Virus record (IMG/VR): IMGVR_UViG_2778261202_000005
Reading direction: 5' to 3' (one strand)
Origin: a virus
Lineage: Duplodnaviria > Heunggongvirae > Uroviricota > Caudoviricetes
DNA length: 6,129 bases
Position numbers and translations under genes: made by a program. Shown here piece after piece: positions 1 through 6,129 of the stretch. The stretch's first letter is position 1, and each line of letters begins with the position of its first letter. The notes beneath the pieces were generated by a model, which was not told where the DNA came from, did not search any database, and saw nothing but the letters and a program-made list of their open reading frames with translations.

Positions 1-363
1 ATGGCTAGCGAACGCAGTACTGATGTGCAGGCATTTATCGGGGAGCTGGACGGCGGCGTATTTGAAACCAAAATCGGCGCAGTTCTCAGTGAAGTCGCTT
101 CCGGTGTGATGAACACGAAAACCAAAGGTAAGGTCTCACTCAACCTGGAAATCGAACCATTTGATGAGAACCGTGTGAAAATCAAACACAAACTCTCATA
201 TGTTCGCCCGACTAACCGTGGGAAAATTTCCGAAGAAGACACCACCGAAACGCCGATGTATGTCAATCGCGGTGGTCGCCTGACTATTCTGCAGGAAGAC
301 CAGGGACAATTACTGACTCTTGCCGGTGAGCCTGACGGAAAACTCCGCGCAGCAGGTCGTTAA
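1..363 (+). CDS. yfdP: Small prophage accessory protein, YfdP-like (120 aa), function unknown
   Basis: Complete ORF with ATG at position 1 and TAA at 361-363. It is followed by 274-aa and 178-aa genes, matching my recollection of the yfdP/yfdQ/yfdR lengths and order in E. coli CPS-53. The symbol is assigned from memory and synteny, not from a search. Confidence 0.55.
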   Translation: MASERSTDVQAFIGELDGGVFETKIGAVLSEVASGVMNTKTKGKVSLNLEIEPFDENRVKIKHKLSYVRPTNRGKISEEDTTETPMYVNRGGRLTILQEDQGQLLTLAGEPDGKLRAAGR

Positions 364-428
364 TATCGTTCTTAATAAACTGATTATTTATCTCATCACT
401 GAATATCTTTATATAGTGAGGACTTATT

Positions 429-1253
429 ATGTCTCAGAACTTAGACGCAACCGCAATTAATCAAATCCATGCCCTTATTTCTGCTCAGGGTGTTAATGAA
501 ATTATCAGTAAGATTGGTGCCGATGCTGTGGCATTGCCTGAGAATTTCCGCATTCATGATCTGGAAAAATTTAATTTAAATCGCTTCCGTTTCCGTGGTG
601 CGCTTTCCACTGCCAGCATCGATGACTTTACCCGTTATTCTAAAGATCTTGCAGATGAAGGCACACGCTGCTTTATCGATGCCGATAATATGCGTGCCGT
701 CAGTGTGCTTAACCTGGGTACTATTGATGAGCCAGGTCACGCAGATAACACTGCCACTCTCAAACTGAAAAAGACAGCACCGTTCTCTGCTCTGTTGTCT
801 GTTAACGGCGAGCGTAACTCCCAGAAGTCACTGGCAGAATGGATCGAAGACTGGGCCGACTACCTTGTGGGCTTTGATGCTAATGGTGATGCCATTCAGG
901 CAACAAAAGCGGCTGCGGCAATCCGTAAAATCACGATTGAAGCAAACCAGACCGCTGATTTTGAAGATAATGACTTCAGCGGCAAACGCTCCCTGATGGA
1001 ATCTGTCGAAGCGAAGACCAAAGACATTATGCCAGTGGCATTTGAATTTAAATGCGTTCCGTTTGAAGGTCTGAAAGAACGTCCGTTTAAATTACGCCTC
1101 AGCATTATCACTGGCGATCGTCCTGTACTGGTTCTGCGCATTATTCAGTTGGAAGCAGTGCAGGAGGAAATGGCTAACGAATTTCGTGATCTGCTTGTTG
1201 AGAAATTCAAAGACAGCAAAGTAGAAACCTTTATTGGTACTTTCACCGCCTGA
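429..1253 (+). CDS. yfdQ: Prophage protein of the YfdQ/DUF2303 type (274 aa), function unknown
   Basis: ORF of 274 aa with a good Shine-Dalgarno (GTGAGGA, 6 nt before the ATG at 429). Length and position upstream of an HD-domain gene match the yfdQ-yfdR arrangement. The family name is recalled, not verified. Confidence 0.7.
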
Positions 1254-1264
1254 TTTCATTACTG

Positions 1265-1288
1265 CAAATGCCCCTGCGGGGGCATTTG
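1265..1288 (+). terminator. Terminator-like hairpin downstream of the yfdQ-like gene
   Basis: Perfect 10-bp inverted repeat CAAATGCCCC / GGGGCATTTG with a 4-nt loop (TGCG), 12 nt after the stop codon. The trailing T-tract is weak (TTTG), so intrinsic termination is uncertain. Confidence 0.4.
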
Positions 1289-1381
1289 TGGAAACGTAAT
1301 TGACTCAATAATCGCCTGATGGCGAGGGTTTTCTTTAACCAAAATTCAGCGCGGTGCAGCGCATATAACGTGGAGAACAAA

Positions 1382-1918
1382 ATGTCATTTATTAAAACTT
1401 TTTCCGGGAAGCATTTTTATTATGACAGGATAAATAAAGACGACATCGTTATTAACGATATCGCGGTTTCCCTTTCAAATATCTGTCGCTTTGCAGGACA
1501 TCTTTCACACTTCTACAGCGTCGCCCAACATGCGGTGCTTTGCAGCCAGCTGGTACCGCAGGAATTTGCTTTTGAAGCGTTAATGCATGATGCAACAGAA
1601 GCGTATTGTCAGGACATCCCCGCTCCACTGAAACGCCTTCTTCCTGACTATAAACGGATGGAAGAAAAAATAGACGCCGTAATCCGTGAGAAATACGAGT
1701 TACCCCAGGTTATGAGTACGCCTGTGAAATATGCCGATCTCATCATGCTGGCAACCGAACGCCGCGATCTCGAGCTAGATGATGGCTCTTTCTGGCCTGT
1801 ACTGGAAGGTATCCCGGCAACAGAGATGTTCAAAGTTATTCCTCTAGCTCCTGGCCATGCCTACGGGCTGTTTATGGAGCGTTTTAAAGAGCTGCATAAG
1901 ATACATAAGCAATCCTGA
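1382..1918 (+). CDS. yfdR: HD-domain phosphohydrolase, YfdR-like 5'-deoxynucleotidase family (178 aa)
   Basis: Contains HD-superfamily motifs (a His in FAGHLSHFYSVAQHAV and the H-D pair in LMHDATE). The ORF track starts at 1319, but the ATG at 1382 has a GGAG Shine-Dalgarno 6 nt upstream and gives 178 aa, the length I recall for YfdR. Confidence 0.8.
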   Translation: MSFIKTFSGKHFYYDRINKDDIVINDIAVSLSNICRFAGHLSHFYSVAQHAVLCSQLVPQEFAFEALMHDATEAYCQDIPAPLKRLLPDYKRMEEKIDAVIREKYELPQVMSTPVKYADLIMLATERRDLELDDGSFWPVLEGIPATEMFKVIPLAPGHAYGLFMERFKELHKIHKQS

Positions 1919-1973
1919 CAGCGAAATTAACTAGTGAAATAGTTTTGTAGCAAAAGAAATGAGGTTATCAAAA

Positions 1974-2219
1974 ATGCTTCAAATGCTGACACTTGAGGAA
2001 TGGGCTGCGGAAAAATTTAGGAGTAATCCTCCAAGTGTGTCCACATTGCGCCGTTATGCTAAGCAGAATTTATTTTGTCCACCGGCAATGAAACAAGGTC
2101 GACTATGGCGAGTGCGTGAGGACGCAGAGTTAGTTGGGGAATTAGTTACCCCTGTCATCAAGAAAAGTGATTCTATTATTCTACAAAGGATTTTAAGTAA
2201 TGGCAGCCAGACCACGTAA
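1974..2219 (+). CDS. xis: Excisionase (lambda Xis-like)
   Basis: The segment MLTLEEW...TLRRYAKQNLFCPPAMKQGRLWRVRE aligns by eye with lambda Xis (MYLTLQEW...TVRRWVRECRIFPPPVKDGREYLF). It overlaps the int start by 20 bp, as in lambda. The start is ambiguous: in-frame ATGs at 1959, 1974 (GAGG 9 nt upstream) and 1983 (best homology alignment). Confidence 0.8.
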   Translation: MLQMLTLEEWAAEKFRSNPPSVSTLRRYAKQNLFCPPAMKQGRLWRVREDAELVGELVTPVIKKSDSIILQRILSNGSQTT

Positions 2220-3327
2220 AAATAATGTTTCAGTCCCGAACTTGTATCCGCTCTATAGCAGAAAAGTAAATAAAGTCTATTGGCGATATAAGCATCCAGT
2301 GACCGGGAAGTTTCATTCTTTGGGCACAAACGAAGCTGAAGCCATTGCCATTGCCACTGAGGCCAATACACGCCTGGCTGAGCAAAGAACCCGGCAGATT
2401 CTGGCCATCAGTGACAGGATAGCAACCAGCAAAGGGAAAGCAATCACAACGTCAACCTGGTTAGATCGCTACCAAGCGATCCAGGATGACCGACTGAAAA
2501 GTGGTGATATAAGACTCAACACTTATAAGCAGAAAGCCAAACCAGTATCCTTACTTAGGGAACGAGTAGGAATGAAGTTGATCTCAGCCGTTGATGTCAG
2601 AGATATAGCACAATTGCTTGACGAGTATATCGCTGCCGGGCAGCCGAGAATGGCGCAAGTCGTAAGGTCTGTATTGATCGATGTATTTAAGGAAGCACAG
2701 CATTATGGCGAAGTTCCGCCAGGGTATAACCCTGCTCTTGCGACGAAGCAACCCAGACGGAAAATCACCCGTCAACGCCTCAGCCTCGAAGAATGGAAAA
2801 AAATCTTCGATATCGCAGATGCCAGTCATCGTTACATGGGAAATGCCATGCTCCTAGCATTGGTCACTGGACAGCGTTTGGGGGACATATCTAAAATGAA
2901 ATTCAGCGATATTTGGGATGACCATCTACATGTCGAACAGGAAAAGACTGGAAGCAAAATCGCAATTCCTCTTTCTCTTCGCCTCAATACGATTAACTGG
3001 AGTTTACGCGATATAATAGCCCGCTGCCGTGACTATGCAGTCAGTCCATACCTAGTGCATTTTTTCCGTTCAACTTCACAAGCAGAACGTGGGGCACAGG
3101 TTAAATCCAATACATTGACGATGAACTTTAGCAAAGCGCGAGACTTGGCCGGAATTGATTGGGGTGATGGAACTCCAGCAACTTTCCATGAACAAAGATC
3201 TTTATCTGAGCGCCTTTATAGGGAACAAGGGATTGATACGCAAAAACTACTCGGACATAAATCTCCTAATCAGACAGCTAGATATCATGATGATCGTGGA
3301 AAAGATTGGGTAACTCTAGCAATTTGA
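2200..3327 (+). CDS. int: Site-specific tyrosine recombinase, lambda Int family (375 aa)
   Basis: Clear similarity to lambda Int along the whole length: N-terminal arm-binding region (PNLY), WLDRY, HVEQEKTGSKIAIP versus lambda YVEQSKTGVKIAIP, and the C-terminal catalytic region PATFHEQRSLSERLYREQ...LLGHKS...ARYHDDRGKDW with the tyrosine in RYHDDRG. Confidence 0.95.
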   Translation: MAARPRKNNVSVPNLYPLYSRKVNKVYWRYKHPVTGKFHSLGTNEAEAIAIATEANTRLAEQRTRQILAISDRIATSKGKAITTSTWLDRYQAIQDDRLKSGDIRLNTYKQKAKPVSLLRERVGMKLISAVDVRDIAQLLDEYIAAGQPRMAQVVRSVLIDVFKEAQHYGEVPPGYNPALATKQPRRKITRQRLSLEEWKKIFDIADASHRYMGNAMLLALVTGQRLGDISKMKFSDIWDDHLHVEQEKTGSKIAIPLSLRLNTINWSLRDIIARCRDYAVSPYLVHFFRSTSQAERGAQVKSNTLTMNFSKARDLAGIDWGDGTPATFHEQRSLSERLYREQGIDTQKLLGHKSPNQTARYHDDRGKDWVTLAI

Positions 3328-3369
3328 TTTTTATATTTTTATTAAAAATTAAAAAATTCAGACGCATCA

Positions 3370-3382
3370 TATCAAAAATTTA
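3370..3382 (+). promoter_or_regulatory. IHF-binding-site-like motif
   Basis: TATCAAAAATTTA fits the IHF consensus WATCAANNNNTTR. Such matches also occur by chance in AT-rich DNA. Confidence 0.3.
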
Positions 3383-3411
3383 TTAGTAAAATAGATAACT
3401 AATATTTTTCT

Positions 3412-3428
3412 TGGGGGGAGGAGCCCCC
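3412..3428. terminator. GC hairpin (GGGGGG-AGGAG-CCCCCC) between the convergent int and membrane-protein genes
   Basis: A 6-bp all-GC stem with a 5-nt loop inside otherwise very AT-rich DNA. It lies between the 3' ends of int (+) and the 4TM gene (-). No clean T-tract follows on either strand, so it may be a structural or processing element rather than a canonical terminator. Confidence 0.3.
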
Positions 3429-3461
3429 CGCACATTATATTGAAGATTAATAACTGATATA

Positions 3462-4427
3462 TCATTTCTTAAATTTAAGAATTTCTTTTAAGGCTTCTAC
3501 TATATTTTTATCCCCATCCATGCTAATTTTCTCCTTCTCAAGAGAAACCGTAGTCTGCCCTTTTTCAAGAACAAAATTACGTTCTGTAGCCATGAGATTT
3601 TTAATAACCTCACCCATTAAGTCTTCGTTTCTAATGCCCTTAAGAAACTTTATCGCCAAAACTTTGGAATCGATATTGGTAAGCTCATTTTGAAAATACT
3701 TGACCTCATCAAAACCATTTTTGTACAACTTCAAGAAGAAATAAGCAAATAGTTCAACGACAATTACAAATGATAATTTGGGGGCCATGTGAAGTATATA
3801 TTCAAGCTTATCATTTGTGTTAATAGCATTTGTAACTGAATATCCAAGGTAAAGTATCCCACAAAAAGCAATAAATGCACCTAAAACCAGATTAACCCCA
3901 CCACGTCTATTTAATCTATTTATTTCATTTTCTAAACGATATACAATATCATTATAGTGTTTACTAATTTCTATTTGATTTCTAAACGAATTTATATCAT
4001 TTTTCAAACTTAAATCTGCAGCCAAGAGAGTATTGCCTACAATCTTTTTTTTAGCATTATCGATCAACTCTTGCCTTTCTTTTGATGTGAGTAAAACACC
4101 ATTTAAATCTTTCGAATCATTTGTAACTAGTTGATTAAACTCTTGCTTTAAGGAGTCTAATTCTGACTTTAACTCTTCATATGAGTTAACATTCTTGTTT
4201 TTACTTTCACCTATTCCTTTATTAACATAATTTAATAAAAATGCTGCCATAAAAGTTAAAATCAGAGTTGCAATAAAGAAACTATTTTCATCTTGAAGTA
4301 TTTTAGCAACAGTGGAAAAATAACTTACGAGAAGAGGCTGAGCATTATAAAGCCCCATTCCTAACAAAACTGCAATTGCCGTACCTAAAACGAACCTTAC
4401 TTCTTGTCTTTTTAGTAACCTATTCAT
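3462..4427 (-). CDS. Four-helix membrane protein with a central coiled-coil-like cytoplasmic segment (321 aa); candidate membrane effector
   Basis: Complete ORF (ATG 4425-4427, stop 3462-3464), very AT-rich. Predicted hydrophobic helices at about residues 12-37, 50-68, 178-198 and 218-235. A positively charged N-terminus (KRQEVR) suggests N-in topology. Residues 70-175 are charged and heptad-like; a C-terminal soluble domain of about 85 aa follows. No enzymatic motif is recognisable by eye. Confidence 0.85.
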   Translation of the reverse strand: MNRLLKRQEVRFVLGTAIAVLLGMGLYNAQPLLVSYFSTVAKILQDENSFFIATLILTFMAAFLLNYVNKGIGESKNKNVNSYEELKSELDSLKQEFNQLVTNDSKDLNGVLLTSKERQELIDNAKKKIVGNTLLAADLSLKNDINSFRNQIEISKHYNDIVYRLENEINRLNRRGGVNLVLGAFIAFCGILYLGYSVTNAINTNDKLEYILHMAPKLSFVIVVELFAYFFLKLYKNGFDEVKYFQNELTNIDSKVLAIKFLKGIRNEDLMGEVIKNLMATERNFVLEKGQTTVSLEKEKISMDGDKNIVEALKEILKFKK

Positions 4428-4544
4428 TATGACACCATATGTTATTATTTAACGTTTTATTAAATTCAAAATACTGCCCGAGATTTTAATACTCATAACA
4501 AAATAAGAATTAATATACAAAATTTTTCATACTACAAGCAAGGC

Positions 4545-4576
4545 TTTGATAAATTGTTTTGATAACGATTTGATAA
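4545..4576. promoter_or_regulatory. Array of three TTTGATAA direct repeats upstream of the membrane-protein gene
   Basis: TTTGATAA occurs at 4545-4552, 4558-4565 and 4569-4576 (spacing 13 and 11 bp), with a fourth copy at 4623-4630. The array sits 118-150 bp upstream of the minus-strand start at 4427. The first copy (TTGATAAATT) also resembles the H-NS high-affinity motif TCGATAAATT. Confidence 0.3.
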
Positions 4577-4595
4577 CCGTTAGAAATCTAATAAT

Positions 4596-4626
4596 AAAAA
4601 CGGGAGCCATCAGACTTCCGTTTTTG
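4596..4626. terminator. Bidirectional intrinsic-terminator-like hairpin
   Basis: AAAAACGGGAG-(8-nt loop)-CTTCCGTTTTT: an A-tract, a stem of about 11 bp with one wobble or mismatch, then a T-tract. On the minus strand the stem is followed by TTTTTATTATT. It lies about 365 nt downstream of the NTase stop and 170 nt upstream of the membrane-protein start. Confidence 0.45.
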
Positions 4627-4930
4627 ATAACCCGGAGCCTAGATTTGGCTACCCCAGCAGGAAGATGCAACGTCCACGATTGTCACAAATCAGGCTGGCC
4701 CGAGGCAGAATGGCGACTGTGAGGGAGAAACGAAAGTTCACACTCGTTCTCACTGCTGATGGGGGGTTCACTAACAATCTCAAGCACTAATTAATGGACG
4801 AAACTCTACACAAAGCCCCATTTTGTAGGAAAACTGGTAACGGATTAGTAATACTACCCGGCCAGAACATGACCGACCGGGTAAAAAAATATCCTGACGC
4901 TACTAAGCCTTTAAGATTTGACTAACCTAG
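4596..4930 (-). ncRNA. Candidate structured non-coding RNA or long 3' UTR element (hypothetical)
   Basis: A GC-rich island (about 50% GC by eye, against about 25-30% in the flanks) with no ORF of 60 aa or more. On the minus strand it is bracketed by promoter-like -10 boxes upstream and the terminator-like hairpin downstream. It contains a further hairpin (ACCCGG...CCGGGT at 4856-4882). Boundaries are approximate and expression is unproven. Confidence 0.25.
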
Positions 4931-4937
4931 TGCTTAC

Positions 4938-4977
4938 ATTATAGAGAACTGCTTATGCCTTCTAAATTATAGAGTAA
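4938..4977 (-). promoter_or_regulatory. Tandem sigma70-like promoter elements just downstream of the NTase stop
   Basis: Two perfect TATAAT hexamers on the minus strand (plus-strand coordinates 4966-4971 and 4938-4943), each in a CTCTATAAT context. The second has a TTTAGA -35-like hexamer 17 bp upstream (4/6 match to TTGACA). Confidence 0.3.
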
Positions 4978-4989
4978 AAATACTCACCA

Positions 4990-6129
4990 CTAAAATACAA
5001 CTTGCTTCCTTAGTAAATCACCTCTAGCATTTGAGTAATATTCAGTCGAATTGCCAGTAACTTCCCGGAGTACTTCTGTTACAAGGTTATTTAGTATTCC
5101 CGTAAGTTTAAGAAACTCTCCATATGAATTAGGTTTCTCAAATATCTTTCTGGTACCGTTCGGCACATCGAGCTGCATTGCAGCATCATGATCCTGGGCT
5201 AAGTGATTTAGCCAGCGGTGAGTCTCAACAAGTACAGCAAGTTCATAGTATGTACTATGACGGAGATTATTAGCATCTGCATGGTACATTAGTGAAGCAA
5301 TATCATAGCTGCTTAGATCAATACTCGAACCTTCGTCTCCACTGTCTGCTTTCAGGGTTTTGAGCATGCGAATTGATTTTCTTAATCCACCATTGCATTG
5401 ATCGCATTTGTCTTTGATACGTTGCATGTGGAGGAACGGTTCATTGTAGATACGCTCTCGTTTGTTTTTATCAATTATGGTAACTCCACGATGTTCTTCT
5501 TTTTTTGTGAGTTGGTACTCTTTCGTATCCCACCATATGCCTGGCACTACATCAACTTCTCTTTGAAGACTCCCCCCCGTTATTCTCAAGGACTTGGCGT
5601 TATTATCGTCAACCTGAGCAGCAGGAAATGTCATTTTTAGAGCATCTCGAGCTGCACGCCTAAGTTCAATGATGACGTCTCGGCCATCTTTCTCAGCTGC
5701 ACTATAGCTGCCAACTCCACCGCTATCATACATAAGCATCTGAGTATCAATAATTAAAAGATCTACATCACTGAAACCTTTGATATGGATATCTAGGGGA
5801 ACAGAACCTTGTACCCGAAAATCTAGGTTTAGGTCTAATTTCTTAGTCAGCTGATTTTCAATACGATACGCGGTTTCGAATGAGATCTCTGTATAGCGGG
5901 GGTCAACTGGTTGCATCGCACCAATGACATACCGGATAGCTGAATCGTCTCTTCCTCTAGACTCCCAACTTTCATTAAGCTCAAGAGCATCTTCAAGCAA
6001 TGCATATTTTTCAAGGCCATCATATCTTTGATTACTCATTGATTCTGTGGCTACTCGCAACTGATCATATGTCCCTTTACGACGTGACTTCATGCGTTCA
6101 ATACGCGAACTATATGATGAATTAGACAT
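4990..6129 (-). CDS. Pol-beta superfamily nucleotidyltransferase, CD-NTase/SMODS-like (379 aa)
   Basis: Motif QGSVPLDIHIKGFSDVDLLI (G108-S109, 11 residues, then D121-V-D123) and a third acidic residue in EVDVVPG (D193) match the GS...DxD...D active-site pattern of cGAS/DncV/OAS-like enzymes. An alpha-helical C-terminal region of about 180 aa follows. The ATG is at the window edge (6127-6129), so an upstream extension or upstream partner genes cannot be excluded. Confidence 0.85.
   Translation of the reverse strand: MSNSSYSSRIERMKSRRKGTYDQLRVATESMSNQRYDGLEKYALLEDALELNESWESRGRDDSAIRYVIGAMQPVDPRYTEISFETAYRIENQLTKKLDLNLDFRVQGSVPLDIHIKGFSDVDLLIIDTQMLMYDSGGVGSYSAAEKDGRDVIIELRRAARDALKMTFPAAQVDDNNAKSLRITGGSLQREVDVVPGIWWDTKEYQLTKKEEHRGVTIIDKNKRERIYNEPFLHMQRIKDKCDQCNGGLRKSIRMLKTLKADSGDEGSSIDLSSYDIASLMYHADANNLRHSTYYELAVLVETHRWLNHLAQDHDAAMQLDVPNGTRKIFEKPNSYGEFLKLTGILNNLVTEVLREVTGNSTEYYSNARGDLLRKQVVF

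What the first reader, a model, noticed from the sequence alone, without database searches (positions are those of the whole stretch)
3328..3461. Prophage integration boundary and abrupt GC drop at the int 3' end
Int-family recombinases such as lambda Int act on an att site next to the 3' end of int. Here int ends at 3327 and is followed by 134 bp of AT-rich DNA with an IHF-consensus-like motif, and GC content falls sharply into the defence-like genes. Inference: the NTase/membrane module is either cargo at the phage att-proximal end (a known position for accessory genes) or part of a defence island into which the phage integrated. Which is true determines whether the module is phage-borne.
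Basis: partly seen in the sequence, partly recalled or inferred. Interest (0 to 1): 0.45.

Follow-up and report, generated by a model that had tools for sequence, protein, structure and literature searches.

The report
Defence-gene cargo slot beside prophage integrase
The GC drop after the integrase gene is not the edge of the prophage but the start of a swappable cargo slot, here holding two anti-phage cassettes, that lies inside an e14-type prophage inserted in the E. coli icd gene; this is an ordinary, well-understood kind of feature.

Summary
intE ends at 3327, and 3328-3461 is 24.6% GC against 45.2% upstream. It holds one perfect IHF-consensus match. It is not an integration boundary. The window is the left end of an e14-family lambdoid prophage inserted in icd. 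The true attL crossover lies about 1.2 kb beyond the window end, 3,994 nt from the int stop. There the phage supplies a replacement icd 3' end, which forms a 222-bp repeat (92% identical) with the displaced fragment at attR.

The membrane gene, the CD-NTase and Cap15 (just outside the window) all lie between attL and attR. They are absent from the empty attB found in 3,015 of 5,426 E. coli genomes. In all ten contexts examined they travel with int and xis.

In related phages the P' arm, three TTTTGATAA repeats, starts 13-24 nt after the int stop. In others that gap holds Lit, RexAB, DarTG, Septu-like genes, a dCTP deaminase, a TIR-NLR and more.

This element holds two cassettes separated by a relic P' arm and terminator (4542-4633). 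That suggests stepwise accretion. It is a new member of a known kind, of modest interest.

The parts
1974..2219 (+). xisE excisionase gene, overlapping the int start. An inverted copy of the arm-type repeat (GGTTATCAAAA) lies at 1963-1973, over its ribosome-binding site and start.
   Evidence: PF07825 Exc 1.8e-12; RefSeq annotation xisE in L001; motif.
2200..3327 (+). intE, an intact e14-family tyrosine integrase of 375 aa. From about 2501 onward it is essentially identical in all carriers of this cargo.
   Evidence: Pfam PF09003 and PF00589; 93-95% identical to E. coli IntE proteins including K-12, 85% to the Enterobacter protein; all 137 differences from other carriers lie in 1-2500.
3262..3313 (.). 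Mosaic junction at the left edge of the cargo slot. DNA similarity to e14 elements with other cargo ends here, 14-23 nt before the int stop. The last ~20 int codons are Enterobacter-like.
   Evidence: E. coli hits H4-H30 stop at 3303-3313; blastn of slot flanks; alignment A4.
3328..3461 (.). The finding itself: an AT-rich spacer (24.6% GC) between the convergent int and membrane-protein genes. It belongs to the membrane-gene cassette and is not an att site.
   Evidence: GC; colinear 76.8% alignment of 3200-4622 with E. roggenkampii L021; alignment A3; no att core in the window.
3370..3382 (+). IHF-consensus match TATCAAAAATTTA. Its reverse complement is an 8/9 match to the arm-type repeat. Probably fortuitous.
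   Evidence: 3.2% of shuffles reach one match; not conserved in Enterobacter.
3412..3430 (.). GC-rich hairpin (GGGGGG-aggag-CCCCCC) between the convergent genes. A hairpin sits at the same place in Enterobacter with a different sequence. It lacks a U-tract, so it is not a canonical intrinsic terminator.
   Evidence: Fold -15.9 kcal/mol, z -2.4 on + strand; no terminator call; alignment A3.
3462..4427 (-). Cassette 1: a 321-aa all-helical membrane or coiled-coil protein of a phage protein family of unknown function. It is not in PADLOC.
   Evidence: phrog_5157 3.3e-75; no Pfam, PADLOC or NCBIfam hit; sole cargo between icd and int in L021-L023; AF2 pLDDT 69.5, no significant fold match.
4542..4633 (+). 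Relic P' arm of an icd-type attP. It has three tandem TTTGATAA repeats (4545, 4558, 4569) and an icd-type terminator hairpin (4595-4626). Homology stops where the icd stop codon should be. This is also the sub-threshold Rfam STnc150 hit.
   Evidence: the only one of 77 triple-repeat sites in IMG/VR contigs not followed by an icd 3' copy.
4634..4989 (.). Orphan spacer between the relic arm and the NTase stop. It has no homologue outside this element and no convincing ORF. It carries a promoter-like site (4966-4938, - strand) and a strong hairpin (4857-4885).
4990..6129 (-). Cassette 2, first gene: a CdnE-like CD-NTase of 379 aa. Its partner, the Cap15 effector gene, overlaps its start just beyond the window end, followed by the true P' arm and icd.
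   Evidence: PADLOC Cyclase 6.2e-137; PDB 6wt9 5.7e-31; Cap15 PF18153 2.1e-37; gene order.

Best explanation
The window is the int-proximal end of an e14-family (phage 21/e14-type) lambdoid prophage integrated in the 3' end of icd. In this family attP consists of a core inside a phage-borne copy of the last ~165 bp of icd, the icd terminator, and three tandem TTTTGATAA repeats. I infer these repeats are Int arm-type sites (the P' arm). In the basic layout they begin about 20 nt after the int stop codon.

That ~20-nt gap is a cargo slot. Foreign low-GC defence genes sit there and are exchanged between phages by homologous recombination. One crossover falls in the int gene and the other in the conserved P'-arm and icd copy.

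Here the slot holds two cassettes. Next to int is a 321-aa membrane protein with its own convergent-gene spacer, which is the finding at 3328-3461. Then comes a relic P' arm and terminator (4542-4633), a 356-nt orphan stretch, and a two-gene type I CBASS (CdnE-like cyclase plus Cap15). The functional P' arm and icd follow, outside the window.

The GC drop at the int 3' end is therefore the left mosaic junction of the cargo slot, not the edge of the prophage. The relic arm is of a different sequence lineage from the functional one. The simplest history is that an element carrying only the membrane gene became joined to one carrying CBASS, for example by tandem integration at attR followed by an internal deletion.

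- Shown: gene content, att positions, empty site, slot variability, the relic.
- Inferred: Int binding to the repeats, the recombination route, the order of events, and any defence activity.
For: **Position of att**
- A 222-bp direct repeat, 92% identical, joins the icd 3' end and the icd fragment beside mcrA/pinE.
- The window is 100% identical to L012, which places the crossover at window-equivalent ~7321.

**Empty site**
- The reconstructed attB is uninterrupted in 3,015 of 5,426 genomes. H57 matches at 100% in one piece.

**Cargo travels with int**
- All ten contexts shown for the exact membrane protein read icd-Cap15-NTase-membrane-intE-xisE. Their immunity and replication regions differ.
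- The cargo DNA occurs in only 3 of 5,426 complete genomes, always at this place.
- Positions 2501-6129 are near-identical among carriers, whereas 1-2500 differs by up to 11%.

**Slot variability**
- K-12 carries ymfD/ymfE/lit. Other genomes carry DarTG, RexAB, a TPR protein, an Sll1717-family ATPase or a DUF262/NsnA-like gene.
- In IMG/VR contigs the distance from int stop to the repeats is 13-24 nt in 35 and 498-3,684 nt in 27.
- Cargo there includes a dCTP deaminase, a type IV restriction enzyme, Septu-like PtuAB, a TIR-NLR and PDC-S31.

**Arm repeats**
- Three TTTTGATAA copies lie at fixed offsets -246, -233 and -222 from the end of the icd homology in every attL examined.
- One copy lies at +119 in the P arm, giving a span of about 395 bp.
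- Int has the lambda arm-binding domain.

**Relic**
- Window 3200-4622 is colinear with E. roggenkampii int-membrane-P'-icd at 76.8%. The Enterobacter sequence then runs into icd while the window diverges.
- The two arm copies in one element are only 85.7% alike over 42 bp and have different terminators.

**CBASS as an independent unit**
- The same pair occurs next to a P2-type int in Yersinia, in a Citrobacter phage-like contig and in the Serratia chromosome. Homology ends exactly at the NTase stop.
Against: - No experiment here shows that Int binds the TTTTGATAA repeats. They overlap IHF-consensus matches, so they could be IHF sites instead.
- My recollection that Wang et al. 1997 (J Bacteriol 179:5705) described 'repeated dodecamers' and a 366-418 bp minimal attP could not be checked, because the paper is not held.
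- The accretion history is one of several possible. Every route needs an illegitimate join at 4633/4634. The orphan 4634-4989 has no identifiable source.
- The slot survey is a sample: 11 genome loci plus contigs selected by an exact motif. It is not a census.
- The membrane protein has no demonstrated or predicted defence function.
- In some carriers the prophage is a ~12-kb remnant (L001, L018), so 'phage-borne' does not imply it is packaged today.
Confidence: 0.88

Rival explanations
1. The NTase and membrane genes belong to a chromosomal defence island next to icd, and the phage integrated beside or into it.
For: Defence systems often lie near prophage att sites (PMC12829572). The genes have low GC and differ from the phage backbone.
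Against: The genes lie on the phage side of the phage-supplied icd 3' copy, between attL and attR. The empty attB in 3,015 genomes has icd running straight into the iraM-side flank with none of these genes. The cargo DNA is never found away from intE in 5,426 genomes.
Confidence: 0.03
2. 3328-3461 is a working part of attP or attL, meaning Int arm or IHF binding sites immediately 3' of int as in lambda.
For: One perfect IHF consensus lies at 3370-3382, reached by 3.2% of shuffles. An 8/9 arm-like motif lies on the opposite strand. In 35 related phages the arm repeats really do begin 13-24 nt after int.
Against: The core is 3,994 nt away and none is in the window. The motif is not conserved in the orthologous Enterobacter spacer. 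The spacer is part of a cassette inserted between int and the arm repeats.
Confidence: 0.04
3. The second TTTGATAA cluster at 4542-4633 is not a relic att arm. It is a conserved functional element, either an STnc150-like small RNA or a terminator-regulatory module that accompanies each cargo cassette.
For: Both copies hit Rfam STnc150 at E 2.8e-06 and 1.6e-04. On the - strand the hairpin followed by a U-run would terminate the CBASS transcript.
Against: Scores of 40.7 and 33.6 bits are below the gathering score of 60, and more than 100 model positions are deleted. In 74 of 77 IMG/VR sites the cluster is followed by the icd 3' copy, as expected for attP. No other sampled slot has an internal copy.
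Confidence: 0.1
4. The two-cassette layout arose by direct insertion of a CBASS-bearing fragment, with a duplicated arm, into a membrane-only element. It did not arise by tandem lysogeny followed by deletion.
For: CBASS is an independently mobile two-gene unit found in unrelated contexts. The homology break at 4633/4634 falls precisely at the expected icd stop position.
Against: The two arm copies are diverged lineages (85.7% over 42 bp, with different terminators), not a fresh duplication. No transposase or target-site duplication is seen. The data cannot really separate this from the tandem-integration route.
Confidence: 0.3

Closest known systems
Cryptic prophage e14 of E. coli K-12 (icd-ymfD-ymfE-lit-intE-xisE)
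   Same: Same integrase family (93% identical IntE). Same attB in icd, with a phage-supplied icd 3' end and a displaced pseudogene fragment (PMC6379469). Same three arm repeats at the same offsets. Same placement of a defence gene (Lit, PADLOC 8.5e-124) between att and int.
   Different: The cargo differs entirely: a membrane protein plus CBASS instead of YmfD/YmfE/Lit. An internal relic P' arm is present. The early region carries yfdP/Q/R.
Phage lambda attP next to int (P' arm with three tandem Int arm-type sites)
   Same: Int with the lambda arm-binding domain (PF09003). Three closely spaced direct repeats on the int side of the core and fewer on the other arm. In empty-slot relatives the repeats start ~20 nt after int.
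   Different: The repeat sequence differs (TTTTGATAA). About 210 bp of icd 3' end and terminator are interposed between core and arm. Here another 3.7 kb of cargo lies between int and the working arm. Lambda details are from my own knowledge, not tested here.
Defence hotspots inside temperate phages and satellites (P2/P4 hotspots; prophage moron cargo)
   Same: A fixed position bounded by conserved phage sequence holds many alternative anti-phage systems. Prophages as the main carriers of variable defensive cargo in E. coli is documented in PMC10121019. Morons at prophage ends and their exchange are described in PMC12829572. The same CBASS pair sits beside a P2-type int in Yersinia.
   Different: The phage family and the position differ (between the int stop and the P' arm of an icd-type attP). 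I found no paper describing this particular slot, but the search library is incomplete.
Type I CBASS with Cap15 effector
   Same: CD-NTase (PADLOC Cyclase 6.2e-137; nearest solved structure CdnE 6wt9) plus Cap15 with transmembrane and beta-barrel receptor domains. It is a two-gene operon with overlapping genes.
   Different: Nothing notable. The RefSeq annotation already names Cap15. The signal molecule and phage targets are unknown.

Membership tests
e14/phage 21-type icd-integrating lambdoid prophage | Lambda-family tyrosine integrase with an N-terminal arm-binding domain, preceded by an overlapping xis | tested here: met
   PF09003 2.1e-37, PF00589 5.9e-19 and Exc PF07825 1.8e-12; 93% identity to K-12 IntE.
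e14/phage 21-type icd-integrating lambdoid prophage | Insertion in the icd 3' end, with a phage-supplied replacement 3' end and a displaced icd fragment at the far end | tested here: met
   222-bp repeat at 92% identity in L001; icd pseudogene fragment beside mcrA/pinE; seen in loci identical or near-identical to the window. These features lie outside the 6.1-kb window.
e14/phage 21-type icd-integrating lambdoid prophage | An unoccupied attB exists in related genomes | tested here: met
   The joined flanks are found uninterrupted in 3,015 of 5,426 complete E. coli genomes.
e14/phage 21-type icd-integrating lambdoid prophage | Int and Xis actually excise the element at these sites | not testable with these tools
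   Needs an excision or circle-junction assay. Int is full length and both att sites are intact in L001.
att site immediately 3' of int (lambda-like layout, as the finding proposed for 3328-3461) | Core or arm-type sites within the ~250 nt following the int stop | tested here: not met
   No core in the window. The nearest arm-repeat cluster is 1.2 kb away and is a relic; the working one is ~3.7 kb away. The feature is met in 35 related phages with an empty slot.
Int arm-type binding sites (P' arm) | Short direct repeats at fixed positions in both arms of attP that are bound by the Int N-domain | tested here: inconclusive
   Position and conservation are met: offsets -246/-233/-222 in all attL examined and +119 in the P arm; 12 motif hits against 2.1 expected in L001. 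Binding was not tested, and the repeats overlap IHF-consensus matches.
Type I CBASS (CD-NTase + Cap15) | A CD-NTase cyclase adjacent to a cyclic-nucleotide-sensing effector, without Cap2/Cap3 accessory genes | tested here: met
   PADLOC Cyclase 6.2e-137 and 2TM Effector 1.1e-80; Cap15_CD_rec 2.1e-37; only two genes in the conserved cassette. Enzymatic and defence activity were not tested.
Rfam STnc150 Hfq-binding sRNA | Score at or above the family gathering threshold (60 bits) | tested here: not met
   40.7 bits (window 4477-4632) and 33.6 bits (icd-proximal copy), with more than 100 model positions missing.
Intrinsic (Rho-independent) terminator, for the 3412-3430 hairpin | A GC-rich stem-loop followed directly by a U-tract | tested here: not met
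   The stem is present, but the scan found no terminator-like site in 3200-5100 and no T-run follows on either strand.

The most novel reading that the evidence does not exclude
The gap between the int stop codon and the P' arm of icd-type phages may be a cassette-accreting defence hotspot. New cargo would be added by tandem integration of related phages followed by deletion, leaving relic P' arms (Int-site triplet plus terminator) as cassette boundaries. These relics could then be re-used as terminators or Int-binding decoys. The orphan 356-nt stretch trapped between the cassettes (4634-4989), with its promoter-like site and strong hairpin, could encode a new prophage small RNA comparable in position to e14 C0293.
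Probability: 0.2. Interest if true: 0.45.

Novelty: new member of a known kind. Interest (0 to 1): 0.3.

Why it matters
The CBASS and membrane genes are phage-borne, so they can move with an e14-type element and spread by recombination among related prophages. It also locates a defence-gene slot in icd-integrating phages to within about 20 nt, bounded by int on one side and three conserved repeats on the other. That makes the slot easy to mine for uncharacterised cargo such as the 321-aa membrane protein. None of this changes current understanding, because variable defence cargo at prophage ends is well documented.

Tried and rejected
- **tRNA target.** A tRNA scan for a tRNA-type attB found none.
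- **STnc150.** I considered this as the identity of 4477-4632. It is below threshold and is explained by the att-arm and terminator sequence.
- **Source of the orphan 4634-4989.** All of the following failed:
  - Distant blastn against E. coli genomes found only the same three genomes.
  - Plasmids gave no match.
  - An exact-hairpin scan of IMG/VR found only the same element.
  - tblastx against other CBASS loci gave nothing.
  - The six-frame ORFs are unconvincing.
  - K-12 C0293 shows no similarity.
- **NTase relatives.** The search for related loci with the NTase in genome contigs returned nothing. It was replaced by a protein search and context look-ups.
- **Membrane protein fold.** The model was mediocre (pLDDT 69.5, pTM 0.40). 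Only non-significant TolQ/ExbB-like hits appeared (E > 0.1), so no function is claimed.
- **Primary att literature.** I tried to read Wang et al. 1997 and Mehta et al. 2004. Neither is held, so those points are marked as memory.
- **Full slot-length census.** A census with a chimeric query was planned but dropped, because the piece-joining limit would miss slots longer than about 3.6 kb.

Full report
**1. The observation**

The ORF at 2200-3327 (+) is an intact 375-aa tyrosine integrase. It has the lambda arm-binding domain and the catalytic domain, and it is preceded by an overlapping excisionase gene. The next 134 nt (3328-3461) are 24.6% GC, against 45.2% for 1-3327. The low GC continues through the convergent 321-aa ORF at 3462-4427 (30.5%) and through 4428-4600 (22.5%). 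One exact IHF-consensus match lies at 3370-3382. Only 3.2% of shuffles of the 134 nt produce one. So the description is accurate. The NTase gene is less extreme, at 41.1% GC.

**2. What the locus is**

Megablast against 5,426 complete E. coli genomes identifies xisE/intE of the e14 family. Only three genomes match the whole window. All other hits stop at 3303-3313, inside the last codons of int.

In those three genomes, and in a locus 100% identical to the window (L012), the gene order is yfdP-yfdQ-yfdR-xisE-intE, then on the opposite strand the membrane protein, the NTase, a Cap15-family gene and icd.

At the far end of the element, beside pinE and mcrA, lies an icd 3' fragment. It forms a 222-bp direct repeat, 92% identical, with the 3' end of the intact icd gene. 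This is the classical e14 arrangement, in which the phage supplies a replacement icd 3' end (PMC6379469). The crossover end of the repeat maps to window-equivalent position ~7321. That is 1,192 nt past the window end and 3,994 nt from the int stop. No core-like sequence exists in the window.

**3. Phage cargo or chromosomal island?**

I joined the two outer flanks in silico to reconstruct an empty attB. It occurs uninterrupted in 3,015 of 5,426 genomes, several at 100% identity. The membrane, NTase and Cap15 genes are absent there.

The cargo DNA (3314-6129) occurs in only three complete genomes, always beside intE. The exact membrane protein is on record in 261 blocks of the collection. All ten contexts shown have the same icd-Cap15-NTase-membrane-intE-xisE order, while the immunity and replication regions differ.

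Among carriers, every sequence difference from the window lies in 1-2500, and 2501-6129 is essentially identical. The unit that moves is therefore the 3' two-thirds of int plus the cargo. The genes are phage-borne att-proximal cargo.

**4. The slot**

Other e14-type elements carry different genes between int and icd:
- ymfD/ymfE/lit in K-12
- DarTG (two loci)
- RexAB
- a 775-aa TPR protein
- an Sll1717-family ATPase
- a DUF262/NsnA-like pair

These come, with PADLOC matches. All the slots are 32-40% GC.

The conserved right flank begins ~105-120 nt beyond the icd stop. It contains three tandem TTTTGATAA repeats followed by the icd-type terminator. The repeats sit at offsets -246, -233 and -222 from the end of the icd homology in every attL examined. 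One copy lies at +119 in the P arm, giving an outer span of about 395 bp. The motif occurs 12 times in L001 against 2.1 expected.

I infer that these are the Int arm-type sites. This fits my recollection of Wang et al. 1997 ('repeated dodecamers', minimal attP 366-418 bp), but that paper could not be read.

A scan of IMG/VR with the triple repeat found 74 contigs:
- In 35 of them the repeats begin 13-24 nt after the int stop.
- In 27 the gap is 498-3,684 nt.
- The filled gaps hold a dCTP deaminase, a type IV restriction enzyme, Septu-like PtuAB, a TIR-NLR, PDC-S31 and others.

Cargo is inserted precisely into that ~20-nt gap.

**5. Two cassettes and a relic arm**

Window 4542-4633 carries a second copy of the three repeats plus a terminator hairpin. 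This is what produced the sub-threshold Rfam STnc150 hit.

In Enterobacter roggenkampii, an 80%-identical membrane gene is the only cargo between icd and an 85%-identical int. Window 3200-4622 aligns colinearly with that locus at 76.8%. The alignment covers the finding's spacer and its hairpin. After the terminator the Enterobacter sequence runs into the icd stop codon, whereas the window diverges at ~4634.

The relic and the working arm in the same element are only 85.7% alike over 42 bp and have different terminators. They therefore come from different phage lineages. It is the only triple repeat among the IMG/VR hits that is not followed by an icd copy.

The CBASS pair is an independent unit. 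It occurs beside a P2-type int in Yersinia, in a Citrobacter phage-like contig and in the Serratia chromosome, and homology ends exactly at the NTase stop.

The simplest history is tandem integration of a membrane-only phage at the attR of a CBASS-carrying one, followed by an internal deletion. Other routes are not excluded.

**6. The finding's 134 nt**

This stretch is the spacer between convergent genes of the membrane cassette. It has a GC-rich hairpin (3412-3430; -15.9 kcal/mol, z -2.4). The Enterobacter spacer has a hairpin at the same place with a different sequence, but the window's hairpin lacks a U-tract. The IHF-like motif is not conserved. I see no evidence that this stretch takes part in recombination.

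**7. Comparison and novelty**

The nearest known case is e14 itself, with Lit in the same slot. Variable defensive cargo in prophages, and morons at prophage ends, are documented (PMC10121019; PMC12829572). I found no paper describing this specific slot or the relic arm.

I rate it a new member of a known kind, interest 0.3.

Unexplained items:
- The orphan stretch 4634-4989.
- The function of the phrog_5157 membrane protein, for which the fold model is mediocre and gave no significant match.

Noticed in passing
window 4634-4989: An orphan 356-nt stretch (about 48% GC in 4601-4920) lies between the relic att arm and the NTase stop. It has no homologue outside this element and no convincing ORF. 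On the - strand it has a promoter-like TTTAGA-17-TATAAT (4966-4938) and a strong hairpin (4857-4885, -19.6 kcal/mol, z -3.97), and it would end at the relic terminator. It could be a small RNA or a structured 3' UTR of the CBASS operon.
   Followed up: partly
window 1963-1973: GGTTATCAAAA, the reverse complement of the arm-type repeat, overlaps the ribosome-binding site and start codon of xisE. Int binding there could feed back on xis/int expression. Its conservation cannot be judged independently, because the whole region is conserved.
   Followed up: no
window ~2500 (inside intE): There is a second mosaic breakpoint. All 137 differences between the window and other carriers of the same cargo fall in 1-2500, reaching 11% in 2001-2500, and essentially none fall after 2500.
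   Followed up: partly
window 3462-4427: The 321-aa membrane protein family (phrog_5157) recurs next to unrelated integrases. A 45%-identical E. coli homologue lies convergent with a 407-aa Arm-DNA-bind_3 integrase in a different lambdoid prophage (L024-L027). One database name calls a relative MotA/TolQ/ExbB-like. Foldseek hits to TolQ/ExbB are not significant.
   Followed up: partly
L019 (Enterobacter sichuanensis) 5802-8517: Here icd is followed by the membrane-protein gene (83% identical) and a CAP12/PCTIR TIR-domain gene with no integrase nearby. This looks like a decayed icd-type element that has kept only its cargo.
   Followed up: no
L037 (ON470584.1, 'Escherichia phage vB_EcoM-689R6, partial genome'): This phage record extends through icd, rluE, nudJ, mnmA and hflD. 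It therefore includes host chromosome beyond attL, and its annotated 'phage' isocitrate dehydrogenase is the host gene.
   Followed up: no
window 1-1918: yfdP/yfdQ/yfdR-like genes (DUF2303 and an HD hydrolase) precede xis. The same block, at about 97% identity, occurs in many Stx2c-converting phages and other coliphages that have different integrases.
   Followed up: no
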